A stretch of DNA of 64,000 bases from NCBI GenBank assembly GCA_017467515.1, contig JAFUSU010000028.1, positions 41,735 to 105,734 of the forward strand, given 5' to 3'. The first letter of the stretch is position 1; every line of letters begins with the position of its first letter. This document shows, piece by piece, positions 9,184-56,450 of the stretch. The notes beneath the pieces were generated by a model. The model was not told the origin of the DNA. It did no database searches and worked only from the letters and a program-made list of their open reading frames with translations. The position numbers were made by a program, and so were the translations under genes. This DNA is from Alphaproteobacteria bacterium. GTDB lineage: Bacteria; Pseudomonadota; Alphaproteobacteria; RF32; CAG-239.

Positions 9184-9241
9184 TTTTTAGACAAAATAGC
9201 GATATAATGAATTAAATAGAAAATAAAAGGGGGAAAGAAAA

Positions 9242-26805: not shown

Positions 26806-28527
26806 TTACTTACGACGCAAAAAAGAAGGAATTTCCAAATTCAACTTATCATCCTCAAACTCATTATCGAAATGAGGTTGTTCTGCAGCGGCTCTGGCTG
26901 CTTCTTCCTTTTCGGCTTTTTTGCGATATCGTTTAGCAATAGAAATACCTGTTACCCGTTCAATTAAAGTCGGGGTGTATTCAGGTGTCTTGTTAACAAT
27001 CAACTGTTCCGGCTCTTCAGTGCGTCGAGGAGCAAAAACGGAAGGATGCGGATTGTGATTAGGGAATAATTCCGGCTCTTCTTCTGTAACAACGGAAGTT
27101 TTAGCCGTAAAAGTATTTGTATTTGCAGATAAAATCTCTTGCATTTGCGTATCGAGATTAATATCTTCATTTTTGCTAATAATAGTTTGGAACAAAGATG
27201 GTGCTTGAGGCATTTCTGGAAGAATTGTCGAGTTTTCAAAATCTTTAAGCTCGGTAAATTGCTCATCACCGGCAACAGCCTGTATCTGAGGCTGTACTTC
27301 TTCCTGTATTGGCTCAGGAAGAACTTCTTGTTCCATATCTTCCGGTTCATCGTTTTCAAAAACATCTTCATGAGATTTTTCAACCGGATTCTCAATCTCA
27401 TTGCTTTCATCTAAGGAAGCAAGAGGTTCGATAGTTTCAAGCTCAGCTGCAACGCTCAATGGTTGCGCTTCCGGATTTTCTGATTCCGGAGTAAAACTTT
27501 CCTCGATGTAATTAACATCTGTTTTCTTTTCAGGAGCTTTGACTGCGGGGCAAACACCGCCGCCAATGCCTGTTGCTACAATAGAAACACGAATTTTTCC
27601 GGCTAGGCTTTCATCAAAGCTTGAACCGAAAATAATATTAGCATCATCATCAACTTCTTCTTTAATGCGGCTGGCGGCTTCGTCAATTTCAAACAAGGTG
27701 ATGTCAGAACCGCCTGTAATATTAATCAAAACGCCTTTTGCACCGTGCATAGAACAATCATCCAGTAATGGATTTGATAAAGCTTGTTCAGCGGCTTTAA
27801 CGGCGCGATTTTCGCCTTCAGCCTCGCCGGTTCCCATAATTGCTTTACCTTTATCTTCCATAATACTCTTAATATCAGCAAAGTCTAAGTTAATTAAACC
27901 CGGCATCAACATTAAATCGGTAATAGAACGAACGCCGGCATATAACACATTGTCAGCCATAATAAAGGCATCGGCCAAGGTTGTTTTTTTATCGGCAACA
28001 CGGAATAAATTTTGGTTAGGAATGATAATGATACTATCAACGGAGTTTGTAAAATCTTCAACAGCGAAGTTAGCTGTTTCCATACGTTTTTTACCTTCAA
28101 ATTGGAACGGCTTGGTTACGACACCGACTGTTAAAATTCCTTTTGATTTAGCGATTCTGGCAACAACAGGAGCAGCACCGGAACCTGTTCCGCCGCCCAT
28201 ACCTGCAGTAATAAAGACCATATTGGCGCCTTCCAATTCTTTTTCAATTTCTGCGGTAGCTTCCTCTGCGGCAGCGCGACCGACTTCAGGACGAGCCCCG
28301 GCACCTAATCCTTGAGTGGTTTCTAAACCTAATTGGATTCGTCGTGAGGCTTTGGAATTAGTCAGAGCCTGAGCATCTGTATTGGCAACAATAAAATCAA
28401 CGCCTTCGAGGTTTTGATCAATCATATTATTAACGGCATTCCCGCCGCCGCCCCCGACACCGATAACAGAAATTCTTGGTTTCAGGTGCATTACATTACT
28501 TTCTGGAATGGCTAATTTAATTGACAT
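26806..28527 (-). CDS. ftsZ: Cell division protein FtsZ with long acidic linker
   Basis: [13 protein letters not shown], the GGGTGSG tubulin signature and the C-terminal [10 protein letters not shown] peptide. Confidence 0.95.
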
Positions 28528-30743: not shown

Positions 30744-30872
30744 TACGGACATTAAAAATTAAAAATGCTTGAAACCCTTGTAAATCCGCGATTTGCGGCT
30801 TTTTTTATATTTTTCATGTTGTCAAAAATACCCCCTTTTTTATCCTGTTTTTCCGATAAATTCCATTCGTTC

Positions 30873-31064
30873 TGTTACCTATTTGTTACCTGTGCTTAAA
30901 AGTTGGTTTGTATTTTATGTGTTTTATATTATGTCTTTTTGCGTTCTTTTTGACTTTTTCCGTCTATTAAAATATTACGATTTAAACTTTAAGTCTTGCG
31001 TAAAGTTTAAAATAACCTTGACTTTTGAGCGATTTTATTTTAGCTTGTTACCTATATGTTACCC
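30873..31064 (+). promoter_or_regulatory. Putative integrase arm-type sites (two pairs of TGTTACC direct repeats)
   Basis: TGTTACCTATTTGTTACC lies at 30873-30890 and TGTTACCTATATGTTACC at 31046-31063, between the att core and int. Confidence 0.45.
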
Positions 31065-31104
31065 GAAAAGGGTTAAAAAGGGTCAAATTGCAGGGTTTTT
31101 TATT

Positions 31105-32379
31105 ATGAAATTGAAATTGAATAAATCAATTATCGAGGCCGCCGCTCCGCTCGAAACGCAGGATTTGCTTATATGGGACGAAGTTTTACCGGCGCTTTTT
31201 GTGTGTGTTAGACCGTCAGGGCGCAAAAGTTTTTATGCTATGTATCGGTTACGCAATCGAAAACAACAAAAAATCAAACTTGGCGACTTTCCACAAATGT
31301 CGGTTGATGAGGCTCGCGAAAAATGCCGCGCTCTGACAAACCGCGCCTTCGATGGTTTTAATCCGGTGCAGGAAATCCGCGACCGGTGCGCCGTTGAGGC
31401 TGACCTCGCTTATTCGGCCACGGTCCGCGACCTCAAAGAAAAATATTTTGCTGAACACGTTATTCATAAAAAGGAAACGTCCGCAAAAAATGAGGTATCG
31501 TATTGGAACGTTCATATTTTGCCGTATATCGGCGACAAGCAAGTTCGGGCGGTTACTGGCGGCGACATTTCGTTTATTCATAACTCTATCGCTAAACAGC
31601 CAAGCCGAACCGGCTATAAAACGACGACAGCAAACCGCGTTCTTGAAATCCTCAAAAAGGCGTTTAATTTGGCCGAGGAGTGGGACTGGCGCGACGAAGG
31701 CTCCAATCCCTGCCGAAAGGTCAAAAAGTTTAAAGAGCGCAAAAGAAAACGCTTTTTAAGCGTTGCTGAAGTGCAAAGGCTCGATGCCGTTTTGCAAAAA
31801 TACCTTGCTTCGCCGGATTATCGGCACCGGCAAATTGCGCGGTATATCCTTTTATTACTCTACACCGGCGCCCGCAAAAACGAACTTATGTGTGCCAAGT
31901 GGGCAAATATTCGGCCGGAACGCGGCGTTCTTATCCTGCCGGATACAAAATCGGGCGAAGTTCAAGAATTACAAATTCCCGAAGAAGGCTTTTTAATCTT
32001 GGATGATATCCGCGCCGACCAAAAGAAAAAACGGCCGAACTCCGAATATATTTTTGACGGTCATATTCACGGCCAGCCGTTGAAGGATGAAGGGCGCCAT
32101 TGGGATAATATCCGCGCCGAGGCTAAACTCGCCGATTTTGTGTTGCACGACCTGCGGCATAGTTTCGCGTCGTTTGTGGCTATGACGACCGGTTCCTTAT
32201 TGGTTATTCAAGAAACGCTCCGGCACGCCGACCCGAAAACGTCGCAACGTTACACCCATTTCTTCAATGATCCGCTCCGTTTGGCGGTTAATAAAACAGC
32301 CAGCACAATAAAATCCGTTATGAAAAATGAAAAAGTGGTTGATATTGAAACCGCGCGGCGCCTGCAAAACGCGTCTTAA
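31105..32379 (+). CDS. int: Tyrosine integrase, P4-like with DUF4102-type arm-binding N-terminus
   Basis: The N-terminus is ...LLIWDEVLPALFVCVRPSGRKSFYAMYR...LGDFPQMSVDEAR. The catalytic R...HDLRHSF...Y residues are present. The ORF-track start at 30793 is a stop-free AT-rich leader. Confidence 0.9.
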   Translation: MKLKLNKSIIEAAAPLETQDLLIWDEVLPALFVCVRPSGRKSFYAMYRLRNRKQQKIKLGDFPQMSVDEAREKCRALTNRAFDGFNPVQEIRDRCAVEADLAYSATVRDLKEKYFAEHVIHKKETSAKNEVSYWNVHILPYIGDKQVRAVTGGDISFIHNSIAKQPSRTGYKTTTANRVLEILKKAFNLAEEWDWRDEGSNPCRKVKKFKERKRKRFLSVAEVQRLDAVLQKYLASPDYRHRQIARYILLLLYTGARKNELMCAKWANIRPERGVLILPDTKSGEVQELQIPEEGFLILDDIRADQKKKRPNSEYIFDGHIHGQPLKDEGRHWDNIRAEAKLADFVLHDLRHSFASFVAMTTGSLLVIQETLRHADPKTSQRYTHFFNDPLRLAVNKTASTIKSVMKNEKVVDIETARRLQNAS

Positions 32380-34484: not shown

Positions 34485-34718
34485 TTAGGCTTGTTTTTTG
34501 TTGTCGTCCGGTTCCGGCGTCATTTGCTCTAACTCATTTATGCGAGCGCGCCATGCTCTCCGGTTGGCGACAACATCTTTATATTTTGCCTTCATTTCGT
34601 CGAGTTCTTCTTTGGTGCCGAAAACTAAGGCCTCGTTGACTTTGTTGTCGATATAGTCAGTTTGCGACAATAATTGGTGCTTTTCGCAAAGCTCGCGTTG
34701 TATATCTTTGTTTTTCAT
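34485..34718 (-). CDS. Small coiled-coil hypothetical protein
   Basis: The 77-aa ORF overlaps the RT 3' end by 62 nt. Confidence 0.35.
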   Translation of the reverse strand: MKNKDIQRELCEKHQLLSQTDYIDNKVNEALVFGTKEELDEMKAKYKDVVANRRAWRARINELEQMTPEPDDNKKQA

Positions 34719-35820
34719 GGTATAGGATCCTTTTTAAAAGTTGTGTCATGTTATAAACTGTTTTTGCTGCGTTCCGGCGTTTCATTGAGCCGGTCCAGCT
34801 GACGAAACTTGTCAACACGTCTTTCTCGGTCATTTGACCGGTTTCGACGAGTTTTCCTTGTTTCTTTAATTTTCGGCGTTCAACTGTTATCGAACGGCGA
34901 CAAGGCTTTTTAAGTATCTTGCCGGTTTTGGTTATAAAAAACCGCGTTTTCAAAAAGCAGAAGCCGTGCTTCAAATCGACAATGCGCGTCTTTTTCGGAC
35001 TGGCGGTTATTTTATGGGTATCGTATAATTTCGTTAACTTCTGCAAGACGTCTTCGAGTTGTTGCTTATCGTGCGAAATTATATAACTGTCGTCCATATA
35101 ACGGCCGTATGCCTTAAAGCCGCATTGGTCTTTTATGAAGTGGTCTATTGCGTTCGGATATGCGATGGCGTGAATTTGACTTGTTTCGCTGCCAAGTCCT
35201 AGGCCTTTTTCGCCGAACGCGTCGACGAAGTCGTCGGTTAATTTCAAAATGTCGGCATCTTTTATGTATTTTCGATAAATTCCTTTTAAGACGTCGTGAT
35301 CTATATTGTCGAAATAGCTTTTAAAATCTATCAAAAGAACGTAACCTTCTTGGCCGTATCTGCGAAAATGGCGGCGAAGGTGTGTAACTAGTCTGTTTAT
35401 GGCAAATAACGTTCCTTTGTTTTTTTGGCTGGCGCCGTTGTCGTAAATGAGATTATGTGTTAAAATCGGTAATAAAACGTTTTGGCAAAGCGATTTTTGA
35501 ACGACACGCTCTGAAAAATGAACGCTCCGAATATGTCGTAATTTGCCGCGCTCGTTTATATCAAAGCAAATAAAGCCTTTTCGAATGTCTTTTCCTTCGA
35601 GTAAATCCTGCCGCGCTCCGGCGGTGCGTAAAATAACGTTCAAGAGATAGCGCTGAACGCTTGCTTTCCAAGTGACGCCTTTTGCCGCGTCAATGGCGGC
35701 GGTATAAAGCGCCTTGAATGAAGAAACGTTTTCGAAGCGGTCAAATCCTCGTAAAAAATCGTTTCGCTTTTCCTGGCGCCTTTTTTGGCGGTTTTCGTAT
35801 CTTTTTTTTCTTCTACTCAT
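34657..35820 (-). CDS. DGR reverse transcriptase
   Basis: It has RT motifs including YMDD and the DGR-specific LGSETSQ ([I/L]GxxxSQ). It lies 270 nt downstream of the TR. Confidence 0.9.
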   Translation of the reverse strand: MSRRKKRYENRQKRRQEKRNDFLRGFDRFENVSSFKALYTAAIDAAKGVTWKASVQRYLLNVILRTAGARQDLLEGKDIRKGFICFDINERGKLRHIRSVHFSERVVQKSLCQNVLLPILTHNLIYDNGASQKNKGTLFAINRLVTHLRRHFRRYGQEGYVLLIDFKSYFDNIDHDVLKGIYRKYIKDADILKLTDDFVDAFGEKGLGLGSETSQIHAIAYPNAIDHFIKDQCGFKAYGRYMDDSYIISHDKQQLEDVLQKLTKLYDTHKITASPKKTRIVDLKHGFCFLKTRFFITKTGKILKKPCRRSITVERRKLKKQGKLVETGQMTEKDVLTSFVSWTGSMKRRNAAKTVYNMTQLLKRILYHEKQRYTTRALRKAPIIVAN

Positions 35821-36089
35821 TTAACTTTTGTTTCCTTTTATAAAAAAAATGTGCCTTGCATAGCGTCGCGGGTTTTGTTTAGCTATATAGAGAACAGGCA
35901 TAAAATAAAGAAACTTCCCGCAAATTCTTTACTATGCACACGCTTTTGGCGTGGCGTTCGCCTGGCTTCGTCAAGGCACTTATTTACAGAGAGCGAATAA
36001 ACTCCCCGAAGGTCGTTTGTTCCTTCCTTATCGTTGTTGCAGCGCTGCTTTCGTTCCTGTGAACTACTCGGTCGGGCTTAACAAGGGAT

Positions 36090-36215
36090 CAGACCGGCAC
36101 GCGAATGCCCGTGTTCGTGCAGTTGTTACTGTTGGCATTCCCGTTGTTGTTGACATTGCACGCGTTCGTGGAGTTGTTACTCGCTGGTGACGAAAGCCAC
36201 CAGTTCGTGCGGCCA
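36090..36215 (-). repeat. DGR template repeat (TR)
   Basis: It is 126 bp and matches 36728-36853 apart from 18 positions, all of which are A in the TR sense strand. Its translation is AAC(Asn)-rich. Confidence 0.9.
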
Positions 36216-36240
36216 CAAAGAGTATATACAACAAACAACC

Positions 36241-36651
36241 TTATTCTGCCGTCTGGATTTTCGCCGACTTTTTCCAATTTTTGAGAAGGCTTACTTCCTT
36301 TTGCAGAATATCCGCTATTGGCGCAATTCTGCGCTTTTCAATGGAAATACAATTTACTAACCTAATGAGCCGGTTTTGTATCTGAAAGCAATTATTTATT
36401 GCTCTTGTTTGATACGCTTTCCGCATTTTCATTTCGTCTTCTGTGGTTGGATAAATTGAATTTGCGGCTATTATATTATCCATTAATTCATCGGTTTTCT
36501 TAATAATATCTTGTCCTAATAGTAATCTATATTTTTTCGGTATTGCTTTTTCGTTCATGGCGAATTTTGTAATCTCGGTTTGTAATTGCTGGCCGGAAAC
36601 GTAAAACGCCAATTCTGTTACTTGTCTTTTCCGTGCGAGAACATTACTCAT
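36241..36651 (-). CDS. avd: DGR accessory variability determinant (Avd, four-helix-bundle family)
   Basis: It is a 136-aa basic helical protein located between the target gene and the TR, as in Bordetella phage BPP-1. Confidence 0.7.
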   Translation of the reverse strand: MSNVLARKRQVTELAFYVSGQQLQTEITKFAMNEKAIPKKYRLLLGQDIIKKTDELMDNIIAANSIYPTTEDEMKMRKAYQTRAINNCFQIQNRLIRLVNCISIEKRRIAPIADILQKEVSLLKNWKKSAKIQTAE

Positions 36652-36670
36652 TTTTCCTTTCCTTCTTATC

Positions 36671-36692
36671 GCGACCGCACGGTGGCGGTCGC
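36671..36692 (-). promoter_or_regulatory. GC-rich hairpin downstream of VR (candidate DGR homing hairpin/cruciform)
   Basis: Stem GCGACCGC acggtg GCGGTCGC lies 35 nt beyond the VR 3' end. Confidence 0.5.
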
Positions 36693-36711
36693 ATTAAAGA
36701 TATGACGGCTT

Positions 36712-37926
36712 TTAGCCGATACGGAAGCAGACCGGCACGCGAATGCCCGTGTGCGTGCAGTTGTCACTGCTGGCAGTCCCGATGGTGTTGACAAAGCACG
36801 CGCCCGCGGAGGTGCCACTCGCCGGTGACGAAAGCCACCAGCCCGCGCGGCCAGAACCGGCGTTGCTTAAAATTCTATGTTCTACGCTTGCGGCAAACCA
36901 TGGATATTGAACCGATAATCCTGCTTCCGGATTCCAATAATTAGTCGTTAAACAGAGGTTAGATCTTACTTGATGTCCATAAACTTCGATTTCGTTCGGG
37001 AGCCAAAGTTTGCCCATATCGCTCCAGTCGGCCGTCGTGCCGCCTGTCAAAAGTCCGCTTGCTGAATAACGACTGTCGAGCCAATTTCTTTTATTTATAA
37101 TTACATTCTGGAGTGCGGTCGGTAATCTTTGCAACAAACCTTTATTTGCCGCATTAAGACCGTGAGCGACGTTGTTATATGCGCTTGTAGTGTAATTGTT
37201 TACGCCGTTTAACCAAGCATAAACCGCTGACGCGAGCCACGGGTGAGCTTCGCTGGCGGTTCCGTTATTGTTATTTTGCGGATTCCATAAAACCTCGTTT
37301 GAAATGCATTCTTTTGTTATAAAGTCGATATGGTGACCGATTGATGTATCGGCTGCGCGGTAATATGTATCTATACCGACAATTCGCGCATTGAGGTTAT
37401 GAGCGGCGACTGTATCTGAACCGACAGTTCCTGCGGTGGTTGTAAATGGGATATAATCACCGACGTGAATACCTTTGAAATTTCCGGCTTGAATTCTCGC
37501 CTGGATCCACGCCCAAACGTTGGCATAACTGGCAATTTCGGTCGCGAATTTTGTTGCGAGGTTAACACCTGCATAACGTCTGTCTGCGTCCAGCGTCGCA
37601 AACATTTTGTTGTCTAACTGTTCGACGCTAGGACATTTATTTGCTTCGGTTCCTGCTTGTAATTGTGCGTCAGTTGCAAAAAAACCATTTACAGCGGCTT
37701 GAGCTTGCGAAATGGCGTTGTTCATTTTTGCTGTAATCGCTTTTTTGAGTTGCGTGTTGTCGGTTGCTGATGGCGTTAATCCTGCGTCTGTAATAGCGTT
37801 GATAATTTCGCGTTGTGGGTTTTCTAATGCGCCCGCAGGAATAACCGAGCCTTCTTGTCCGTTTGCCGGATCTGCGTTAACATAAGAAGCATTTGCTGAT
37901 TCGCCGAGTGGCGGTGTATATTTCAT
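36712..37926 (-). CDS. Tail fibre / receptor-binding protein, DGR target
   Basis: The N-terminus is tail-fibre-like (MKYTPPLGESANASYVNADPANGQEGSVIPAG). The C-terminal framework WWLSSPAS...GIRVPV carries the VR. Confidence 0.85.
   Translation of the reverse strand: MKYTPPLGESANASYVNADPANGQEGSVIPAGALENPQREIINAITDAGLTPSATDNTQLKKAITAKMNNAISQAQAAVNGFFATDAQLQAGTEANKCPSVEQLDNKMFATLDADRRYAGVNLATKFATEIASYANVWAWIQARIQAGNFKGIHVGDYIPFTTTAGTVGSDTVAAHNLNARIVGIDTYYRAADTSIGHHIDFITKECISNEVLWNPQNNNNGTASEAHPWLASAVYAWLNGVNNYTTSAYNNVAHGLNAANKGLLQRLPTALQNVIINKRNWLDSRYSASGLLTGGTTADWSDMGKLWLPNEIEVYGHQVRSNLCLTTNYWNPEAGLSVQYPWFAASVEHRILSNAGSGRAGWWLSSPASGTSAGACFVNTIGTASSDNCTHTGIRVPVCFRIG
36728..36853 (-). repeat. DGR variable repeat (VR)
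   Basis: See TR. It occupies the last ~45 codons of the target gene. The 3' 25 nt are identical to the TR and GC-rich (IMH-like). Confidence 0.9.
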
Positions 37927-51282: not shown

Positions 51283-52737
51283 TTAATTTTTTTCTATATC
51301 CTCGCTTGAGTTTGGCTCCGGTGCGCCGCGACCATTTGTCGGATCAATAGAAAATACTAGGCCGAGGCTTGCTGCACGGTCCGCGTCGGCCGCGATTTGT
51401 TTATCAACTTCGGCTGCGTCACCGCCGTTTTCTGATATAATCTGCGAGCGAGAGGCAAAACCGCACAAAACTTTTTCTTTTTCGGCCGCGACTTCCTGTT
51501 GCGGATTGACGTATGCCCAGCCTGCAGGCTGAAAATGTGCTGCGTGGAAGGCGTCCGGATTGTCGGCGTATTCTGTCACGTCAATATCAAGTTCGCCGCT
51601 TAAAACGACGGCCTCGACAAAGCGTTCCCAAATCCGGCGCAGGACTTGGTGGATTAAGCGGTCTTGCTCTTGTCGGTGTTTGCGTTGAGTTATGTTTAAC
51701 CCCATTCGTGAACTTGAAAAATTCGTTTTCGACATATCGTTGGCGAATTCCTCATAAGTCAACTGCACCGCGTTGGCGATTAATCGTAAATTTTGCGCCA
51801 TAAACGGCTCGTAAGAACTGCCGCTTTCGGTGGTTGGATTAAACTTTATGTCTTCGCCTGGCGCCAGCGTGGTAATGGTGCCGGTTGTCAATTCGGCGAT
51901 TGCTTCGCCTGGTCCGGCATCTTCGTCTTCGTCGTCAGAGTTAAGGGCGCCGTCCGGCGTCGGCGTGGTTACAAATCCGGCCAGCATTGCCGAAAGTTTC
52001 TTTTTTGCGAGTTCCGCTTCGTCATACTCCAGCATTTCGCGCGATTTCAAAAGAACGGCGAAGGCTTCAGGCACGCCGCGAACCTGTCCCGCCCATAATG
52101 GCTTAAAATAGTGACAAATTTCGTCTGCCGGAACTTCGACGGTGTCGGTGGCGTTGGTTGGGATGAGGCTTTCGTTCGGATTGTCGCGGTATAAAATAAA
52201 CGACTTTCGGTGTCCCATTTTATCAAACCGCACACCTGCAATAACGCGCTCGTTGGTGCCGGAGTCGTAAAAATTCTCATCGATTTTTACCTGTTCGGCC
52301 GGTATAATTTGCAATTTTAGCGGTATGCGGCCGCTGTTATCCGGTATAAACCGAATAAAGACTTCGCCTGCTTCCCAGCGTTCGCGAACGGCCAAGGAAA
52401 GGAGGCTTTTTAGATTGTGGACGCCTTCGAGATCACAATGGTTTTGCCACCAATTCCAAAGCGCGACGATTTTTTCGCAATAATCGCAGTCGTCATGGCG
52501 CGGCAAAACGCGGATTCCTGGTCCCACGATATTACTGGCGATTGTTTCGTATGCGCCGTTCATATATCCGAAGTTTCGCGTTAAATCGCGCGATTTGCGG
52601 CGCATTTCCTCAACTGAATAAACGATTAGCGTATTCGGACCGGCGCTGGTTACTTTCCACGCCCTCATGCGGCCGCGACTTGAAGTGCCGAACGCCGGAT
52701 CAGAAAAAAAGCGTTTTAATCTTTTTCTTAAACTCAT
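51283..52737 (-). CDS. Portal protein, lambda gpB family
   Basis: Size, order (W-portal-protease) and lambda-type portal sequence. Confidence 0.85.
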   Translation of the reverse strand: MSLRKRLKRFFSDPAFGTSSRGRMRAWKVTSAGPNTLIVYSVEEMRRKSRDLTRNFGYMNGAYETIASNIVGPGIRVLPRHDDCDYCEKIVALWNWWQNHCDLEGVHNLKSLLSLAVRERWEAGEVFIRFIPDNSGRIPLKLQIIPAEQVKIDENFYDSGTNERVIAGVRFDKMGHRKSFILYRDNPNESLIPTNATDTVEVPADEICHYFKPLWAGQVRGVPEAFAVLLKSREMLEYDEAELAKKKLSAMLAGFVTTPTPDGALNSDDEDEDAGPGEAIAELTTGTITTLAPGEDIKFNPTTESGSSYEPFMAQNLRLIANAVQLTYEEFANDMSKTNFSSSRMGLNITQRKHRQEQDRLIHQVLRRIWERFVEAVVLSGELDIDVTEYADNPDAFHAAHFQPAGWAYVNPQQEVAAEKEKVLCGFASRSQIISENGGDAAEVDKQIAADADRAASLGLVFSIDPTNGRGAPEPNSSEDIEKN

Positions 52738-52962
52738 TTATAACCCCCTGTGGGTAACTGTTTTAATTATGCGGGTTTTCTTTACGCCGAGTTCGGCATC
52801 AATGGCGTCAATGGCGGCTTTTATGTCGTCAAGACTGCGAAATGTAACGCTTTTTCCGTTGTGGCTGATGGTTGCGGTGCCGCTGGTGTATGCGTTGAAT
52901 AGTTTTTTTCGCCGTGCCTTCAAATCGGCGATTTCTTCCTCTGATAAATTTTTATTTGCCAT
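52738..52962 (-). CDS. Head-tail joining protein gpW-like
   Basis: It is 74 aa. The pattern ...ISHNGKSVTFRSLDDIKAAIDAIDAELG is like lambda W. Confidence 0.65.
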   Translation of the reverse strand: MANKNLSEEEIADLKARRKKLFNAYTSGTATISHNGKSVTFRSLDDIKAAIDAIDAELGVKKTRIIKTVTHRGL

Positions 52963-53093
52963 GGTCTTTCCCTCGGTTTTGCCGTTCTAAAACTATTTTA
53001 GGCAAATTATACGCAAATGTTCAAAAAAAATTTTTTATATATTGACTTTTGGTCTTTTTTGTGGTTAAAATTTTGGCGTAAAGTCAATTTTGA

Positions 53094-53164
53094 CGGACAG
53101 TAGCTCAGTTGGATAGAGTGCCGGAACGTGCGGCGTGTCGAAGGTTCAAGTCCTTCCTGTCCGA
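53094..53164 (+). ncRNA. tRNA-like element 1 (Arg-ACG-like, defective anticodon arm)
   Basis: It has a perfect acceptor stem (CGGACAG/CTGTCCG), a D arm identical in type to tRNA-Arg and a T arm GAAGG-TTCAAGT-CCTTC. The anticodon arm has only a 4-bp stem with loop GAACGTG (A33, T37). The total length is 71 nt and no CCA is encoded. TTGACT at 53042 is promoter-like. Confidence 0.45.
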
Positions 53165-53306
53165 ACCGCCCCTTGGATTTGCCAAGGTGGGAACTCGCGA
53201 GAGTTGGTTTCCGGTTGTTGCGCTTGCGCTGATGGCGTTTGCGTTCCATGACTAAAAAAACCGGTGTCTTTTGGGAATAATTTTTCTTGCAGAAAGAAAA
53301 ATCCCG

Positions 53307-53367
53307 CGCGTTGCTTGGCGATAGGTTCCGTATGGTTCACTAGTGGGTTCAATTCCCATCGACGCGT
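53307..53367 (+). ncRNA. tRNA-like element 2 (acceptor/T-arm minihelix, 61 nt)
   Basis: It has acceptor CGCGTTG/CGACGCG and T arm GTGGG-TTCAATT-CCCAT. Only about 29 nt lie in between, and they have no D or anticodon arm fold. Confidence 0.35.
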
Positions 53368-53377
53368 GATTTACTTT

Positions 53378-53446
53378 CGGATCGTGGCCAAATGTTAAGG
53401 CGCGTGCGACTGTAACGAATTGCGGGTTCAAACCCCGCCGATCCGA
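53378..53446 (+). ncRNA. tRNA-like element 3 (69 nt, no foldable anticodon stem)
   Basis: It has acceptor CGGATCG/CGATCCG, a 3-bp D stem and T arm GCGGG-TTCAAAC-CCCGC. The anticodon region CGTGCGACTGTAACGAATT does not pair. Confidence 0.4.
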
Positions 53447-53612
53447 CTTATGAACAAAACTTGAAGGAGCGTCGGTCGGCTCGGTTGCAAACGAAATGAC
53501 CGGCAGGGGAAACGCCGAGCGGTTGCAAACGTCCGGCGTTTTTCTTTGTGAAAAAATATAAAATAGTTCTTGACTTTTAATTTTTCCGTGTTTATTTTAT
53601 GCACAGTTTTGA

Positions 53613-53689
53613 CGCGGGGTAGAGCAGCTCGGTAGCTTACCAGGCTCATAACCTGGGGGTCGGTGGTTCAAATCCACCCCCCGCAACCA
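53613..53689 (+). tRNA. Phage-encoded initiator tRNA-fMet (CAU), 77 nt, CCA encoded
   Basis: It has the C1-A72 mismatch, anticodon loop CTCATAA, a self-consistent 27-43 pairing and T loop TTCAAAT. A promoter-like TTGACT lies at 53570, and a terminator follows directly. Confidence 0.9.
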
Positions 53690-53698
53690 TAAAAGCGA

Positions 53699-53728
53699 AA
53701 GGTGTCGAATTCGACACCTTTGTTTTTT
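53699..53728. terminator. Bidirectional terminator (18-nt perfect palindrome GGTGTCGAATTCGACACC)
   Basis: The palindrome is followed by a T-run on + and preceded by an A-run. It serves tRNA-fMet (+) and the 49-aa ORF (-). Confidence 0.8.
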
Positions 53729-53876
53729 ATTCTGAAATGCTGTATGCTTGGCAGGCTGGCTCATATCCGCGCTCGCACCGAACTTTATTTTCCCAAACAT
53801 CGCCAATTATCAAAAGAAAATATAAAAACGCAAAAAATGCTATTAATGAAATGAAATCTAAAATATTTTTAATCAT
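53727..53876 (-). CDS. 49-aa hydrophobic peptide (below the ORF-track cutoff)
   Basis: Hand translation gives MIKNILDFISLIAFFAFLYFLLIIGDVWENKVRCERGYEPACQAYSISE. An AAGG lies 11 nt upstream and the ORF ends at the terminator. Confidence 0.4.
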   Translation of the reverse strand: MIKNILDFISLIAFFAFLYFLLIIGDVWENKVRCERGYEPACQAYSISE

Positions 53877-53917
53877 GTTCTTATGCCTTTTCTAGAGGTC
53901 CCCTCAATCCGTGAGGT

Positions 53918-53994
53918 GTCGGGAGCTAGAAACACGCATAAGATCGTGCGAAGTTATTTCCCTTAAAGGGTCTTGTATTCCTTGCACTCCCGAC
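53918..53994. ncRNA. Structured hairpin element A (paralogue of 54129-54209)
   Basis: It has an 8-bp closing stem GTCGGGAG/CTCCCGAC. It shares the internal blocks AGTTATT(T)CCCT and TTGTATTCCT.GC with element B. Its 5' side also pairs with 54044-54066. Confidence 0.45.
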
Positions 53995-54128
53995 GTAAAT
54001 CGGCATAAAAAAATCCGCTTAATCTTTCGGGGCGGGATATCCGTCTTATGTATGAGTTTCTAGCTCGATTTGAATATTACCGCCCAAAGGTTAAAAACCA
54101 GTTAACAAAATAATTTTATTTCAAAAAA

Positions 54129-54209
54129 GCACGTCGGGAGTTGAAGCCGCCGGTCATAGCGTGGAGTTATTCCCTTTTTCTCGGTTTTGTATTCCTCGCG
54201 CTCCCGTGC
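54129..54209. ncRNA. Structured hairpin element B, flanked by an A-run and a T-run (terminator-like on both strands)
   Basis: The closing stem is GCACG(tc)GGGAG/CTCCCGTGC. It lies immediately 3' of the 71-aa ORF on the - strand. Confidence 0.45.
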
Positions 54210-54213
54210 TTTT

Positions 54214-54429
54214 TTATTTATCCAGCTTTTCTTTGGCTTTTCTTTGCTCGATTTGTGGTCTGAAATGATCTAATATTCCGGATAATATCAAAGCTAAGAC
54301 TAGCCATAAAATAATGCCGGTCCATAAAAAATTTATTTTATCAAAATATAAAAGCGGTAAAATAACAAATAACCCGATAAAAGCGACCGCGCCTTCGAGT
54401 GTTTCGTTTTTCTTCTGATCTTCTGCCAT
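54214..54429 (-). CDS. 71-aa two-TM membrane peptide (moron; holin-like or exclusion-like)
   Basis: It has two hydrophobic helices and AT-rich composition. A candidate promoter of its own, containing the TTGACTTTT motifs, lies at 54486-54505. Confidence 0.5.
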   Translation of the reverse strand: MAEDQKKNETLEGAVAFIGLFVILPLLYFDKINFLWTGIILWLVLALILSGILDHFRPQIEQRKAKEKLDK

Positions 54430-54521: not shown

Positions 54522-56450
54522 CTACGCAAACCGCGCAACAACGCGGCGGCGCTTGCGTTTCTGTAAGATTTTCGGCTTGGGGATATCCTCAACGTTGACT
54601 TCCGGATTAGCTTCGACGGCCTCGCGGACTTTTTCGGCGTATTCCTGCCGCGCCAGCATTTTTTCCCACCGACGCCTTAAATCCAGACCGGAGAGCTTCA
54701 AACCTTCAAGAGCGGCGAGTGAATAACCGAATATGTCGAGGGCTTCGTTGCGCTTGCGTCCTGGACGCAGGGCGTAATATCTTATTTTTCGGCCTTTACT
54801 GTATGAAGTTTTCGCTTCTTCGGCTGTTAATTGCACAAAGTGGTTTTCGTCGTAACTCATGTTGAAGTGACAATATCCGGCGGCGCCTTGATCTTCAATT
54901 TTTAGTCGCGAATAAATGACGTCTTTGACTGTATCGGTGCCGACTAAAAAGAATTCTAGGTTTGTTTTACGGAGTTTTCCTGGCGCCTTTTTAAAAATCG
55001 GCCGCCCTTCGCCTGGCATACCTTTGACCGCCCACACGCGCCGGTTCCATCGTTCTTTGCAAAAATTTCCAACCTGTTGCGTTAAATATCCGCTATCTAT
55101 ACAGCAGGCCGATATTGTCATTTCACCGGTTAAATCGTGTTTTATCGGCGTTTGTAATAGTTCGTCGAGTTCGTCCCAAACACGGGGCGCGGATGGGTCG
55201 CCGTATAAAACAACTTTGCCGAGGCCGTAACTTTGATTTTTGGCCGTCCATCCGATTCGTTCAACTTCCAGTCGGTCATCCTGGACGTCGACGCCGGAAG
55301 TTATAACAACAACTTCAACCGGTGCTGTTTCGTATGTTTCGCGACGTGCGACCAGTTTATCTTCTTCGACGCGCTCGCCTTTATCTTCCCAAACTTCGCC
55401 AAGCGAGGTATTAACAAACGTCTTTAATGCTTCCGGATCATCTTTGGCATCAAGGAATGCGCGGACGATTTCTTCTAACTTTACCCAGGGTGAGTATCCT
55501 TCCCAAAGTGCAAAACCGGCGTGTCCGTGAAAAGGCTTTGTTGCTCGCCATTCGCCTTGACCGATGGCGTGCCACCGCTCGACGTCATTCCAAAGTGTGC
55601 CGCAATGTTCGCAAGCATAAGCGGCGGTTTCCGGCCTGCCGTTTCCGGCGTCGTCTTTTTCCCATTTTACCTGCGCCCAGGTCAAACGTTGCATTTCGCC
55701 GCAATGCGGACATGGCACAAAATAAAACCGCATATCCGAATTTTTGAATGACGCGTCAATTTTACTTATGCCGGAAATCGTCGGCGTTGAACATTTGATT
55801 ATTTTTTTATTCCAGAAGGTCGTTGCGCGCTTCATTGCGAGTTTTATCGGGTCGCCTTCCTTGCCTGCCGATAGCGGATAACGGTCTACTTCGTCCATAA
55901 AAACAATTCTTATCGGGCGGCTGGCTAATCCCGCCGGAGAGTTCGCGCCGACCATTGTTATGTGGCCGCCTGGGAATGATTTATGAAGAACTGTGTTGCC
56001 GGTGTCTTTACCTTCCGCAACTTTGCCCTGCAGACACGGCGTGTCGCGGAGCATTGGTGCTAGTCGGTCTGTTGACCAGCTTTTAGCGACGTCTTCGGTC
56101 GGTTGTAATAATAGCATTGGACACGGGTCTTTATCAATGAAAAAACCGACAGCGTTATTTATTATTTCGGTTTTGCCGACCTGCGCCGACGCGACAATGG
56201 TTATTTCGTCGCAGTTAATATCCGATATTGCATCCATTATTCCGCGCTGGTATTCGGCGCGGCTGGTCTGCCATTGCCCTGGCTCCGCTGAACTTTCCGA
56301 AGACAATATGCGATTTTCGTCCGCCCACTCTGATATTGTTTGGCGTGGCGGAAGTTCTAAACCTTTAAGAAACCCCTCGCAAAAGGTTTTAACGCCTTCG
56401 AAGACTAACCATTCGTCCGAGTATTGTTCTAACGCATTTGTCGCACTCAT
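54522..56450 (-). CDS. Terminase large subunit, lambda GpA family
   Basis: The GpA N-terminal pattern (TISEWADENRILSSESSAEPGQWQTSRAEYQRGIMDAISD), Walker A-like QVGKTE and size. Confidence 0.9.
   Translation of the reverse strand: MSATNALEQYSDEWLVFEGVKTFCEGFLKGLELPPRQTISEWADENRILSSESSAEPGQWQTSRAEYQRGIMDAISDINCDEITIVASAQVGKTEIINNAVGFFIDKDPCPMLLLQPTEDVAKSWSTDRLAPMLRDTPCLQGKVAEGKDTGNTVLHKSFPGGHITMVGANSPAGLASRPIRIVFMDEVDRYPLSAGKEGDPIKLAMKRATTFWNKKIIKCSTPTISGISKIDASFKNSDMRFYFVPCPHCGEMQRLTWAQVKWEKDDAGNGRPETAAYACEHCGTLWNDVERWHAIGQGEWRATKPFHGHAGFALWEGYSPWVKLEEIVRAFLDAKDDPEALKTFVNTSLGEVWEDKGERVEEDKLVARRETYETAPVEVVVITSGVDVQDDRLEVERIGWTAKNQSYGLGKVVLYGDPSAPRVWDELDELLQTPIKHDLTGEMTISACCIDSGYLTQQVGNFCKERWNRRVWAVKGMPGEGRPIFKKAPGKLRKTNLEFFLVGTDTVKDVIYSRLKIEDQGAAGYCHFNMSYDENHFVQLTAEEAKTSYSKGRKIRYYALRPGRKRNEALDIFGYSLAALEGLKLSGLDLRRRWEKMLARQEYAEKVREAVEANPEVNVEDIPKPKILQKRKRRRVVARFA

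What the first reader, a model, noticed from the sequence alone, without database searches (positions are those of the whole stretch)
53094..53446. Operon-like array of three crippled tRNA-like elements inside the phage late operon
Between terL and gpW, on the strand opposite to the structural genes and behind a TTGACT promoter-like box (53042), lie three elements with perfect 7-bp acceptor stems and canonical T arms (GGTTCAAGTCC type). Their anticodon arms are defective or missing.
- Element 1 is tRNA-Arg(ACG)-like, but its loop is GAACGTG (A33, T37) on a 4-bp stem.
- Element 2 is a 61-nt acceptor/T minihelix.
- Element 3 (69 nt) has no foldable anticodon stem.
- None of them encodes CCA.

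Three independent pseudogenes that all retain perfect acceptor and T arms look selected rather than decayed. They could be decoys or competitive substrates for host tRNA-targeting defence nucleases or acetyltransferases, primers, or domains of a larger ornate phage RNA. GOLLD and ROOL RNAs are known to sit next to tRNAs in prophages.
Basis: partly seen in the sequence, partly recalled or inferred. Interest (0 to 1): 0.7.

Follow-up and report, generated by a model that had tools for sequence, protein, structure and literature searches.

The report
Anticodon-less tRNA-like genes in a prophage
A prophage of an uncultured gut/rumen alphaproteobacterium carries, next to its own initiator tRNA, three genes for tRNA-shaped RNAs that keep the amino-acid-acceptor half of a tRNA under selection but have no usable anticodon, so they probably work as tRNA mimics or RNA-processing handles, not in decoding.

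Summary
Three elements lie on the + strand between gpW and terL: 53094-53164, 53307-53367 and 53378-53446. Each has a complete 7-bp acceptor stem and a 5-bp T arm, none has a canonical anticodon arm, and none encodes CCA. A strict acceptor/T scan finds only these three in the window (0.39 expected by chance).

About 50 related prophage islands show the elements are conserved, not decaying. Acceptor, D and T stems stay 93-99% paired, with 5-9 pairs per family changed on both sides. The anticodon region is rebuilt or deleted.
- Element 1 is a shortened member of a tRNA-like family (here "family X") found in nearly every relative. In most relatives the anticodon arm is a zipped, loop-less palindrome beside a long variable arm. 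The ACG "anticodon" lines up with the ACGT centre of that palindrome.
- Element 3 looks derived from the phages' tRNA-Pro(UGG).
- True tRNAs in these islands always encode CCA (Met 39/39, Pro 22/22). The odd elements almost never do.

No GOLLD, ROOL or tmRNA match was found. Best reading: non-decoding tRNA mimics cut out by RNase P and RNase Z, most likely decoys for tRNA-binding factors. The main rival is processing punctuation for neighbouring structured RNAs. Function is untested.

The parts
53042..53071 (+). Promoter P1 (TTGACT-18 nt-TAAAAT) of the tRNA-like operon
   Evidence: 10 of 12 consensus matches. The TTGACT box and leader are conserved in all related islands. The gpW-El1 intergenic region is 84-86% identical to relatives.
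53094..53164 (+). El1: 71-nt tRNA-like RNA gene, a shortened member of family X. Acceptor 53094-53100/53157-53163. D arm 53103-53119. Stem-loop GCCG-GAACGTG-CGGC 53120-53134. T arm 53140-53156. A73 at 53164. No CCA.
   Evidence: Homologues come in 84-nt and 61-nt forms with compensatory changes in the stems.
53165..53306 (+). Spacer 1, a structured RNA. It begins with a conserved double hairpin at 53171-53205: H1 CCTTGG-ATTTG-CCAAGG, then TGGG, then H2 AACTC-GCGA-GAGTT with a GNRA loop.
   Evidence: 94% identical in L058/59/63/68, more than the promoter region. The double hairpin has 16 variants with compensatory changes and always lies directly 3' of a tRNA or tRNA-like element. Fold z-score -2.2.
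53307..53367 (+). El2: 61-nt tRNA-like RNA gene without a D arm. Acceptor 53307-53313/53360-53366. Linker CTTGGCGA. Internal hairpin. T arm 53343-53359. T73 at 53367. No CCA.
   Evidence: Homologues are in L058/59/63/68, L006/L020 and L001. 94.7% of cells are paired and 9 pairs changed on both sides.
53378..53446 (+). El3: 69-nt tRNA-like RNA gene, probably derived from tRNA-Pro(UGG). Acceptor 53378-53384/53439-53445. 3-bp D stem. 19-nt defective middle 53403-53421. T arm 53422-53438. A73 at 53446. No CCA.
   Evidence: Homologues have two different 19-nt middles but a nearly invariant top half. Aligned with the phage tRNA-Pro genes.
53447..53548 (+). 3' trailer: two hairpins, each presenting a GUUGCAAA apical loop (53483-53492 and 53521-53530). 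The second hairpin plus its T-run is the operon terminator.
   Evidence: fold z-score -2.6. The GGTTGCAAAC motif occurs only at these two places in the window. It is conserved in the trailers of relatives.
53570..53598 (+). Promoter P2 (TTGACT-17 nt-TATTTT) for tRNA-Met. Both leaders end in TTTTGA just before the C that starts the RNA (El1 at 53094, tRNA-Met at 53613).
53613..53689 (+). Intact initiator-type tRNA-Met(CAT): C1.A72 mismatch, CCA encoded
   Evidence: (59.7 bits). Present in nearly all related islands, always with CCA.
53698..53721 (.). Bidirectional terminator hairpin where the + strand RNA unit meets the - strand moron unit
   Evidence: One search finds a terminator-like site on both strands. 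It is conserved in relatives.

Best explanation
El1, El2 and El3 are genes for stable, non-decoding, tRNA-shaped RNAs in a phage-borne tRNA and small-RNA operon. That operon is a moron-like unit with its own sigma-70-type promoter and terminator, inserted antisense between terL and gpW.

**Proposed mechanism**
1. Host RNA polymerase starts at P1 and makes a precursor of roughly 470 nt that ends at the trailer terminator (inferred).
2. RNase P cuts at each 5' acceptor end. Because none of the three carries CCA, an RNase Z-type cut after the discriminator frees the 3' ends, and CCA may then be added (inferred from how these enzymes recognise the acceptor/T half).
3. This yields three L-shaped or half-L-shaped RNAs with an intact acceptor/T (and D) half. 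Two of them have a tRNA-Pro-like acceptor end (C1-G72, G2-C71, G3-C70, A4-U69, A73).
4. None has a 7-nt anticodon loop with U33 and a purine at 37, so the ribosome cannot use them (shown from sequence).
5. They then occupy a protein that recognises the upper half or overall shape of tRNA. The likeliest target is a tRNA-targeting toxin or nuclease of host or rival-phage immunity, which can bind them but finds no anticodon loop to cut. They would act as decoys or competitive inhibitors alongside the phage's own initiator tRNA (inferred).

**How likely.** That these are selected, non-decoding tRNA-like RNAs: about 0.8. That decoy or mimicry is their specific role: about 0.35.
For: **The fold is real, and selection acts on it**
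- The fold features are at the stated coordinates, and the cluster is far beyond chance.
- El1/family X: 17 distinct sequences, 98.9% of stem cells paired, 5 pairs changed on both sides; 0 of 500 shuffles reach the paired fraction or the covariation score. RNAalifold independently predicts the same three stems.
- El2: 94.7% paired, 9 pairs changed on both sides.
- El3 plus tRNA-Pro: 92.9% paired, 5 pairs changed on both sides.
- G.U pairs in the stems fit the + strand RNA, not its complement.

**The anticodon region is free or remodelled**
- El1 exists as 84-nt, 71-nt and 61-nt forms, the last with no arm at all. All three keep perfect top halves.
- El3's top half is 96-100% identical between lineages. 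Its middle is 63% identical, and flanking sequence 71-92%.

**In family X the arm is kept as a helix of anticodon-arm length**
- The inner five pairs of the palindrome stay complementary in 11-12 of 12 variants, with different sequences in different lineages. The dyad lies 8-9 nt after the D stem, where the anticodon would be.
- The long variable arm differs in a paired way by inspection (AAAC/GTTT versus GAAC/GTTC).
- This points to selection for a whole tRNA-shaped object with a closed anticodon end, more than a processing signal alone would need.

**Acceptor end.** The first four acceptor pairs are almost invariant and of tRNA-Pro type. The family X T-arm/acceptor pattern otherwise hits genuine bacterial tRNA-Pro genes.

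**CCA contrast.** Encoded in Met 39/39 and Pro 22/22, against X/El1 0/43, El2 0/11 and El3 3/18.

**Literature.** Phage tRNA genes are established counter-measures to tRNA-cleaving defences. Resistance maps to the anticodon stem-loop, including shortened anticodon stems (PMC10264068, PMC11464382, PMC11555353, PMC12445682).
Against: - There are no expression, processing, CCA-addition or binding data.
- A decoy has to compete with a very large cellular tRNA pool.
- The 61-nt relatives of El1 dropped the anticodon arm altogether, so a decoy for a nuclease that reads the anticodon stem cannot be the whole story.
- The discriminator varies between A and G in family X, which argues against one strict acceptor-end identity.
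- In this window the middle parts look degraded. El1's palindrome is imperfect, El2's inner hairpin has two U.U mismatches, and El3 keeps only a 3-bp stem. That pattern is equally compatible with a role that needs only the top half.
- El1's top half is only slightly more conserved (84-96%) than the neighbouring promoter region (85%).
- One natural island (L089) lacks family X and the trailer, so the elements are dispensable for phage viability.
- No tRNA-targeting system or tRNA-handling enzyme turned up among the roughly 30 ORFs of the window that were scanned.
Confidence: 0.35

Rival explanations
1. Processing punctuation only. The tRNA-like elements exist to recruit RNase P and RNase Z, so that the structured RNAs between and after them are released with exact ends. 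Those RNAs are spacer 1 with its double hairpin and the GUUGCAAA trailer. On this view the tRNA-shaped by-products have no role of their own. Plant mitochondrial t-elements and the MALAT1/mascRNA pair work this way.
For: - Only the part RNase P and RNase Z read (acceptor/T helix plus elbow) is conserved, and El1's anticodon arm can be deleted outright.
- All odd elements lack CCA while the true tRNAs have it. From prior knowledge, encoded CCA is an anti-determinant for RNase Z.
- A tRNA or tRNA-like element directly precedes each conserved structured RNA. The double hairpin follows El1, El3 or tRNA-Met; the trailer follows El3 or family X.
- Spacer 1 is more conserved (94%) than El1 itself.
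- Precedent: t-elements (PMC1920247).
Against: - El2 and El3 are only 10 nt apart (53368-53377), which is redundant as punctuation.
- True tRNAs (Met-CCA) already precede the same double hairpin in most islands, so a CCA-less mimic is not required.
- Family X keeps a covarying helix of anticodon-arm length and a covarying long variable arm. It also keeps a nearly invariant tRNA-Pro-type acceptor end. RNase P and RNase Z need none of these.
Confidence: 0.25
2. Decaying tRNA pseudogenes. These would be remnants of a once-functional phage tRNA cluster, such as tRNA-Pro and a class II tRNA. They would look intact only because divergence is recent or because of gene conversion.
For: - The window's copies have the most degraded middle parts of their families.
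- El3 replaces an intact tRNA-Pro found in other islands.
- One near-identical contig (L014) carries a G2>T change that breaks an acceptor pair of El1.
- One island (L089) has lost family X and the 3' half of tRNA-Pro by deletion.
Against: - Stems stay 93-99% paired across 7-17 distinct sequences per family. There are 5-9 pairs changed on both sides and 0 of 500 shuffles reach the paired fraction or covariation score.
- Three length forms of El1 all keep perfect acceptor, D and T stems.
- Changes concentrate in the anticodon region and are not spread evenly.
- Family X lacks a decodable loop in every lineage sampled, yet is nearly universal.
Confidence: 0.1
3. Amino-acid carriers outside the ribosome, or traps for a synthetase or EF-Tu. 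The RNAs would gain CCA and be charged by a synthetase that tolerates a missing anticodon. They would then feed a non-ribosomal aminoacyl-transfer reaction or tie up the enzyme.
For: - Intact acceptor/T halves are present.
- The acceptor end is tRNA-Pro-like in El1 and El3.
- Relatives of El1 carry a class II long variable arm. From prior knowledge, that feature lets SerRS and LeuRS charge tRNAs without reading the anticodon.
Against: - There is no G3.U70, which is the Ala identity element.
- The window's El1 has lost the long arm.
- From prior knowledge, bacterial ProRS depends strongly on G35/G36.
- The discriminator is not conserved in family X.
- No aminoacyl-transferase gene was seen among the ORFs scanned.
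Confidence: 0.05
4. Unusual but working decoders. El1 would be a nuclease-resistant tRNA-Arg(ACG) with a 4-bp anticodon stem, and El3 would have an odd loop.
For: - ARAGORN calls El1 tRNA-Arg(ACG) and it folds as a cloverleaf with a 7-nt loop.
- Phage tRNAs are known to resist nucleases through shortened anticodon stems (PMC12445682).
- The type-b El3 of relatives has a 7-nt loop ACUUAGA and encodes CCA in three islands.
Against: - El1's loop has A33 and U37 where tRNAs have U33 and a purine.
- Its ACG aligns with the ACGT centre of a loop-less palindrome in the 84-nt homologues, and the arm is absent in the 61-nt homologues.
- El2 has no candidate anticodon.
- The window's El3 has only a 5-nt or a 9-nt loop.
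- Rfam reaches its threshold only by skipping the arm.
- No CCA is encoded, unlike every true tRNA here.
Confidence: 0.03
5. Domains of one large structured phage RNA, as GOLLD and ROOL are, with 53094-53550 folding as a single unit.
For: Dense, conserved structure runs along the whole 450 nt: the tRNA-like elements, the double hairpin and the trailer hairpins.
Against: - No Rfam family other than tRNA matches, even at E <= 10.
- The modules occur in different orders and combinations in different islands. That fits independent units better than one fold.
Confidence: 0.04

Closest known systems
Phage-encoded tRNAs that counter tRNA-targeting defences, such as T5 tRNA-Lys against PARIS, tRNA-Tyr against Retron-Eco7, tRNA-Thr against P2 OLD, and the mycobacteriophage anticodon-loop variants (PMC11464382, PMC11555353, PMC12445682, PMC10264068)
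   Same: - Clustered tRNA-fold genes carried by a phage.
- The changes concentrate in the anticodon stem-loop, including shortened stems.
- They sit next to an intact phage tRNA.
   Different: The known cases still decode and rescue by replacing the cut tRNA. The three elements here have no usable anticodon loop and no encoded CCA. They could only act as mimics, not as replacements.
tRNA-like processing signals: plant mitochondrial t-elements (PMC1920247) and MALAT1/mascRNA (PMC8457004)
   Same: An acceptor/T-arm mimic without decoding function sits next to another functional RNA, and its role is to be cut by RNase P and RNase Z.
   Different: Those are eukaryotic or organellar and embedded in mRNAs or long non-coding RNAs. 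Here there are several distinct families in a bacterial virus. One of them keeps a full tRNA-sized shape and a tRNA-Pro-type acceptor end.
tmRNA tRNA-like domain, including the two-piece tmRNAs of Alphaproteobacteria
   Same: Acceptor stem plus T arm with no anticodon arm, and a helix in its place. El2 has this layout.
   Different: No G3.U70, no tag reading frame and no pseudoknots. ARAGORN finds no tmRNA and Rfam shows no tmRNA match.
Bacillus cereus pseudo-tRNA tRNA-Other (PMC3399842)
   Same: A tRNA-like gene on a mobile island that does not work in translation, yet has a cellular role.
   Different: It is a single chromosomal gene with an anticodon arm. It is not a phage array, and it has no loss or zipping of the anticodon arm.
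Arm-lacking mitochondrial tRNAs, such as the D-armless tRNA-Ser (prior knowledge)
   Same: El2 lacks a D arm, and El1's 61-nt relatives lack a whole arm, while the acceptor/T helix remains.
   Different: Mitochondrial armless tRNAs always keep the anticodon stem-loop and still decode.
Extra stable RNAs in the T4 tRNA cluster (species 1 and 2, rnaC and rnaD) and RNase P-processed phage RNAs such as P1/P7 C4 (prior knowledge, not checked here)
   Same: Non-tRNA stable RNAs are co-transcribed with phage tRNAs and matured by the tRNA-processing enzymes.
   Different: No sequence relationship was found. Only the tRNA-Met part of this region matches the phage records by BLASTN.

Membership tests
Canonical tRNA (Rfam RF00005) | 7-bp acceptor stem and 5-bp T stem with a T-loop of the TTCRA type | tested here: met
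   All three elements. The stems are maintained by compensatory changes.
Canonical tRNA (Rfam RF00005) | 5-bp anticodon stem with a 7-nt loop carrying U33 and a purine at 37 | tested here: not met
   - El1: 4-bp stem, loop GAACGUG with A33 and U37.
- El2: none.
- El3: 3-bp stem with a 9-nt loop, or a 5-nt loop.

From. Rfam alignments skip this region.
Canonical tRNA (Rfam RF00005) | Score at or above the Rfam gathering threshold (29 bits) | tested here: inconclusive
   El1 scores 44.5 and El3 45.8 bits, but only through local alignments that omit the anticodon arm. El2 gets no tRNA hit. True tRNAs in the window score 54.5-65.5 bits.
Canonical tRNA (Rfam RF00005) | D arm with G18 G19 forming the elbow | tested here: inconclusive
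   El1 has it (GCTC-AGTTGGATA-GAGT). El3 has a 3-bp stem and only one G in the loop. El2 has no D arm, although its linker and the start of the internal hairpin contain two GG doublets.
Canonical tRNA (Rfam RF00005) | 3' CCA, which is encoded in every true tRNA of this genome and phage group | tested here: not met
   Not encoded in El1-El3. Across islands: X/El1 0/43, El2 0/11, El3 3/18, against Met 39/39 and Pro 22/22. Host tRNA-Val and tRNA-Leu encode CCA. Addition after transcription cannot be tested here.
tmRNA (one-piece or two-piece) | G3.U70 alanine identity pair, a tag-peptide reading frame, and detection by ARAGORN or Rfam | tested here: not met
   The 3-70 pairs are G-C, C-G and G-C. 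ARAGORN reports no tmRNA. No tmRNA hit at E <= 10.
GOLLD / ROOL / other large phage RNAs | Match to the Rfam covariance models | tested here: not met
   No hit at the gathering threshold in the window, nor at E <= 10 in 52900-54300.
Neutral tRNA pseudogene | No constraint: substitutions break stems as often as they hit loops | tested here: not met
   93-99% of stem cells are paired, with 5-9 pairs changed on both sides per family. 0 of 500 shuffles reach the paired fraction or covariation score.
Family X (class-II-like tRNA-like gene of this prophage group, defined here) | tRNA-Pro-type acceptor (CGGAYNG...), standard D and T arms, no encoded CCA | tested here: met
   El1 aligns over these parts with 16 family members and takes the family's place in window-type islands.
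Family X (class-II-like tRNA-like gene of this prophage group, defined here) | Anticodon arm replaced by a loop-less palindrome (half-site 5-9 bp), plus a long variable arm | tested here: not met
   The window's El1 has an imperfect 15-nt version (GCCGGAACGTGCGGC) and no long arm. Its nearest sequence relatives are the 84-nt form, with GGAAC|GTTCC and a long arm, and the 61-nt form without an arm. El1 is therefore a reduced derivative, not a typical member.
Anti-defence decoy or mimic of tRNA | Binds or inhibits a tRNA-targeting defence protein, and its loss sensitises the phage | not testable with these tools
   This needs genetics and biochemistry. Only the anatomy and the literature context speak for it.

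The most novel reading that the evidence does not exclude
A previously undescribed class of phage RNA anti-defence genes. These would be tRNA mimics that keep the acceptor/T/D half, and in most relatives the full L-shape with the anticodon loop zipped into a helix. tRNA-targeting immune nucleases or toxins would bind them and find nothing to cut. In family X, the self-complementary centre of the arm would additionally let two mimics pair into a symmetric dimer.
Probability: 0.25. Interest if true: 0.85.

Novelty: new variant of a known kind. Interest (0 to 1): 0.6.

Why it matters
Phage tRNA genes have recently been recognised as counter-measures to tRNA-cleaving immunity. Every documented case works by supplying a replacement tRNA that still decodes. 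Here a whole prophage lineage from gut and rumen Alphaproteobacteria keeps tRNA-shaped genes that cannot decode at all. Selection acts on the acceptor/T half, and the anticodon end is closed, shortened or removed.

If these RNAs act as mimics, RNA decoys would join the list of anti-defence or lysogen-protection tools. They would also offer natural, uncleavable tRNA analogues for studying tRNA-targeting toxins. If they are only processing handles, they would be a bacterial-virus counterpart of mitochondrial t-elements and mascRNA. They would then point to two new structured small RNAs, the double hairpin and the GUUGCAAA trailer.

For annotation, the case shows that calls such as "tRNA-Arg(ACG)", "tRNA-Glu(TTC)", "tRNA-Ala(GGC)" or "tRNA-???" for these genes are artefacts.

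Tried and rejected
- **Known RNA families.** Rfam at the gathering threshold on the whole window, and at E <= 10 on 52900-54300. Only tRNA and sRNA-Xcc1 matched; no GOLLD, ROOL, tmRNA or Y-RNA-like family. The same held for a relative's island.
- **Phage records.** BLASTN of the island against 50,697 phage records matched only the tRNA-Met part.
- **IMG/VR pattern scans.**
  - All 34 hits to the El3 D-arm 15-mer were chance.
  - The El2 pattern gave only contigs of the same phage group.
  - Family X patterns gave 0 and 2 hits, both in the same phage group.
- **Metagenome scan.** The family X T-arm/acceptor pattern mostly hit ordinary bacterial tRNA-Pro genes and att-site tRNA-Pro fragments. 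A few family X copies came from the same phage group. The family therefore looks confined to this lineage in the collections searched.
- **Primer for the prophage reverse transcriptase.** Rejected as unsupported. The RT sits in a diversity-generating-retroelement (DGR)-like cassette with an Avd-like ORF and the RT-2 RNA.
- **Antisense targets.** A search for complementarity of the variable middle parts elsewhere in the window gave only chance-level 9-10-mers.
- **tRNA-handling proteins.** None turned up among the roughly 30 window ORFs scanned, such as a CCA-adding enzyme, ligase, synthetase or nuclease.
- **El3 origin.** Whole-length identity is not decisive for descent from tRNA-Pro (65-72%, against 55-69% to other tRNAs and tRNA-like elements). 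The inference rests on three points: the acceptor stem differs only at pair 6-67, El3 takes tRNA-Pro's place in the island, and three type-b copies keep ACCA.
Full report
**Context**

The window holds about 30 kb of host DNA, including FtsZ at 26806-28527 and tRNA-Val and tRNA-Leu. A prophage follows:
- integrase at 30793-32379;
- a diversity-generating-retroelement (DGR)-like cassette;
- lysin, contractile-tail genes and lambda-type head genes;
- terS and terL, a ParB-methyltransferase and a D5-type primase.

terL (54522-56450), gpW (52738-52962) and portal (51283-52737) are on the - strand. The 1.56 kb between terL and gpW has two converging parts that meet at a bidirectional terminator at 53698-53721. 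On the - strand, next to terL, are two small membrane-protein ORFs with sRNA-Xcc1-like elements. On the + strand, next to gpW, is the RNA operon that contains the finding. Relatives come from MAGs and metagenomes labelled Alphaproteobacteria, from rumen and gut samples.

**Checking the observation**

Every statement about the sequence is correct.
- El1 (53094-53164), El2 (53307-53367) and El3 (53378-53446) each have a 7-bp acceptor stem, with one G.U pair in El2, and a 5-bp T stem with a TTCAA-type loop.
- None has a canonical anticodon arm. None is followed by CCA.
- ARAGORN calls only El1, as tRNA-Arg(ACG).
- Rfam's tRNA model passes threshold for El1 (44.5 bits) and El3 (45.8 bits), but only with local alignments that jump over the anticodon arm. 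El2 gets nothing significant.
- The promoter-like TTGACT-18-TAAAAT at 53042-53071 is real.
- A strict acceptor/T scan finds exactly these three hits in both strands of the window, all within 350 nt on one strand. Shuffled windows give a mean of 0.39.
- Public gene calls on identical contigs place no protein gene there.

**Relatives**

TerL and gpW homologues led to about 100 loci and about 55 distinct islands at the same genomic position. All carry an RNA operon on the strand opposite the structural genes, behind the same TTGACT promoter. Two layouts dominate.
- Most islands read tRNA-Met (initiator type), tRNA-Pro(UGG), then an odd 81-89-nt gene. ARAGORN reports that gene as "tRNA-???" with a 2-nt anticodon. 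It is called family X here.
- Window-type islands read X/El1, optionally El2, El3, terminator, a second promoter, then tRNA-Met.

Islands identical to the window occur in several samples. One of them carries a G2>T change in El1.

**What the three elements are**

*El1* is a reduced member of family X. Its homologues come in three forms.
- An 84-nt form has the anticodon arm as the palindrome GGAAC|GTTCC, plus a long variable arm.
- The window's 71-nt form has GCCG-GAACGTG-CGGC and no long arm.
- A 61-nt form has the D arm joined to the T arm by 9 nt, with no anticodon arm at all.

The ACG therefore lines up with the ACGT centre of the palindrome in the 84-nt form, so it is unlikely to be an arginine anticodon.

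*El2* has homologues in the nearest islands and in two more distant ones. Their T stems differ in a compensatory way: GTGGG/CCCAT, ATGGG/CCCAT, ATTGG/CCAAT and TAAGG/CCTTA. An inner hairpin also covaries: AACC/GGTT, AGCC/GGTT and TTTC/GAAA. In the window that hairpin is weakened to TTCC/GGTT.

*El3* shares several features with the phages' tRNA-Pro(UGG).
- The acceptor stem differs only at pair 6-67, and the discriminator is the same.
- The 5' strand of the anticodon stem differs by one base.
- El3 takes tRNA-Pro's place in the island.
- Three copies even keep ACCA.

It is probably a derivative. Whole-length identity alone cannot prove this.

**Selection**

| Alignment | Distinct sequences | Stem cells paired | Pairs changed on both sides |
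|---|---|---|---|
| El1 / family X | 17 | 98.9% | 5 |
| El2 | 7 | 94.7% | 9 |
| El3 + tRNA-Pro | 9 | 92.9% | 5 |

- In all three alignments, 0 of 500 shuffles reach the observed paired fraction or covariation score. Sliding the 3' partner drops pairing to 26-49%.
- RNAalifold finds the same stems without guidance.
- G.U pairs place the functional strand on +.
- Change concentrates in the anticodon region. El3's top half is 96-100% identical between lineages, its 19-nt middle 63%, and the flanks 71-92%.
- Caveat: the relatives are close, and El1's top half is only slightly better conserved than the adjacent promoter region. The argument rests on the compensatory pattern and on three length forms that all keep perfect stems.

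**A sharp contrast with the true tRNAs**

Every tRNA-Met (39/39) and every tRNA-Pro (22/22) in these islands encodes A-CCA. So do both host tRNAs in the window. Family X/El1 (0/43) and El2 (0/11) never do, and El3 rarely does (3/18). The family X T-arm/acceptor sequence otherwise matches ordinary bacterial tRNA-Pro genes. Its first four acceptor pairs (C1-G72, G2-C71, G3-C70, A4-U69) hardly vary.

**An unexplained feature of family X**

In 12 of 12 analysable variants the "anticodon arm" is a palindrome with no unpaired centre. Examples are TCTGTG|CACAGA, TTGCTTG|CAAGCAA, CTGTGG|CCACAG, ATGTGT|ACACAT, CTATG|CATAG, ATGTGC|GCACAT, TGTGG|CCACA and GGAAC|GTTCC.
- The dyad lies 8-9 nt after the D stem, where the anticodon would be.
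- The arm is as long as a normal anticodon arm.
- The two innermost "pairs" cannot pair within a single hairpin, yet they are complementary in all 12 variants and use several different pair types.

This points either to an intermolecular duplex (a dimer) or to a constraint at the DNA level. The window's El1 has lost the feature.

**Neighbouring RNAs**

- El1 is followed directly by a double hairpin at 53171-53205 whose second loop is GNRA. The motif exists in 16 variants with many compensatory changes. It always lies directly 3' of tRNA-Met-CCA, El1 or El3.
- The operon ends in a trailer of two hairpins, each showing a GUUGCAAA loop. The second is the terminator.
- Neither matches an Rfam family.
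- The modules appear in different orders in different islands. That argues for independent units and against one large RNA.

**Mechanism**

Three things are shown.
- The genes are conserved.
- The RNA fold is selected on its acceptor/T/D half.
- Decoding is structurally excluded.

The rest is inferred. Transcription starts at P1. RNase P cuts at the 5' ends, and an RNase Z-type cut follows the discriminator because CCA is absent. Stable tRNA-shaped RNAs are released.

Their role is open between two readings.
- I favour mimicry or decoy of a tRNA-binding factor, most plausibly a tRNA-targeting toxin or nuclease. Family X is kept as a whole tRNA-sized object with a closed anticodon end and a specific acceptor end, and phage tRNA loci are known anti-defence loci (PMC10264068, PMC11464382, PMC11555353, PMC12445682).
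- The main rival is pure processing punctuation for the neighbouring structured RNAs. It explains the missing CCA and the dispensable anticodon arm. It does not explain the conserved helix, the long arm or the acceptor sequence of family X, nor the tandem El2-El3.

Neutral decay, odd decoders, aminoacyl carriers and a single large RNA are less likely, for the reasons given under the rivals.

**Comparison with known systems**

The elements fail the defining anticodon-arm and CCA features of canonical tRNA. They fail the tmRNA and GOLLD/ROOL tests. They also fail the "no constraint" test for pseudogenes. The closest analogues by function are nuclease-resistant phage tRNAs, t-elements and mascRNA, the tmRNA tRNA-like domain, and the B. 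cereus pseudo-tRNA (PMC3399842). I found no description of conserved anticodon-less tRNA-like genes in phage tRNA operons in the literature searches. I therefore rate this a new variant of a known kind.

**Verdict**

Interest is moderate to high (0.6).

Noticed in passing
L001-L007, L075-L095, L106-L111, L115, L135, L149, L152, L159 (for example L086 island positions 606-691): Family X is an 81-89-nt tRNA-like gene that ARAGORN reports as "tRNA-???" with a 2-nt anticodon. Its anticodon arm is a loop-less palindrome that differs in each lineage. Even the two innermost positions are complementary in 12 of 12 variants, and the dyad sits at the anticodon position. Possible causes are RNA dimerisation or a DNA-level constraint.
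   Followed up: partly
window 53171-53205: A conserved double hairpin lies directly after a tRNA or tRNA-like 3' end. It has a 6-bp stem with loop AWUUG, then UGGG, then a 5-bp stem with a GNRA loop. Relatives show 16 variants with many compensatory changes, after tRNA-Met-CCA, El1 or El3. No Rfam match.
   Followed up: partly
window 53447-53548: The operon trailer folds into two hairpins that both present a GUUGCAAA loop (GGTTGCAAAC at 53483-53492 and 53521-53530). The second hairpin is the terminator. The motif is conserved in the trailers of all relatives, so this is a candidate small RNA.
   Followed up: partly
window 53613-53689: The phage carries an initiator-type tRNA-Met (C1.A72 mismatch, CCA encoded) with its own copy of the operon promoter at 53570-53598. 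Nearly every relative has one. Many relatives have an unusual T loop, TGCAAGT. In L079 the anticodon reads TAT.
   Followed up: partly
window 53910-53994 and 54125-54209 (- strand): Two sRNA-Xcc1-like elements (56 and 26.8 bits) lie between two small membrane-protein ORFs: 54214-54429, 71 aa, and 53727-53876, 49 aa. Both ORFs are on the late-gene strand. A similar hit occurs in relative L002. This looks like a cassette-like moron unit.
   Followed up: no
window 34657-37926 (- strand): A diversity-generating-retroelement-like cassette: a DUF6273 protein, possibly the DGR target (36712-37926), an Avd-like ORF (36241-36651), the Rfam RT-2 RNA (35831-36081, 85 bits) and a reverse transcriptase (34657-35820).
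   Followed up: partly
L061, L067, L069, L100 (El3 type b, for example L067 island positions 417-484): A variant of El3 has a 7-nt loop ACUUAGA (a UUA triplet with C33) on a 5-bp stem with one mismatch, and only a 2-nt variable region. In three islands it keeps an encoded CCA. It may be an intermediate between tRNA-Pro and the window's El3.
   Followed up: no
L001 about 10120-10260, L002 about 9200-9330, L003 and L004 (tRNA-sense strand): A conserved GC-rich module of roughly 150 nt lies between the trailer and the bidirectional terminator in some relatives (CTGGCAGG..GCGCGCGGGCGGAGCC). It is absent from the window. No Rfam match in L002.
   Followed up: no
L014 (equivalent to window 53095 and 53191): A near-identical contig carries G>T at El1 position 2, which breaks the G2-C71 pair. 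It also carries G>A in the TGGG linker of the double hairpin. These are either real variants or assembly noise.
   Followed up: no
L059, L068, L070, L086-L090, L095, L100 (between terL and the RNA operon): Many relatives encode a 173-292-aa protein directly after terL, where the window has the 71-aa ORF; several of these have weak WYL-domain hits. The protein half of the island is a variable moron slot.
   Followed up: no
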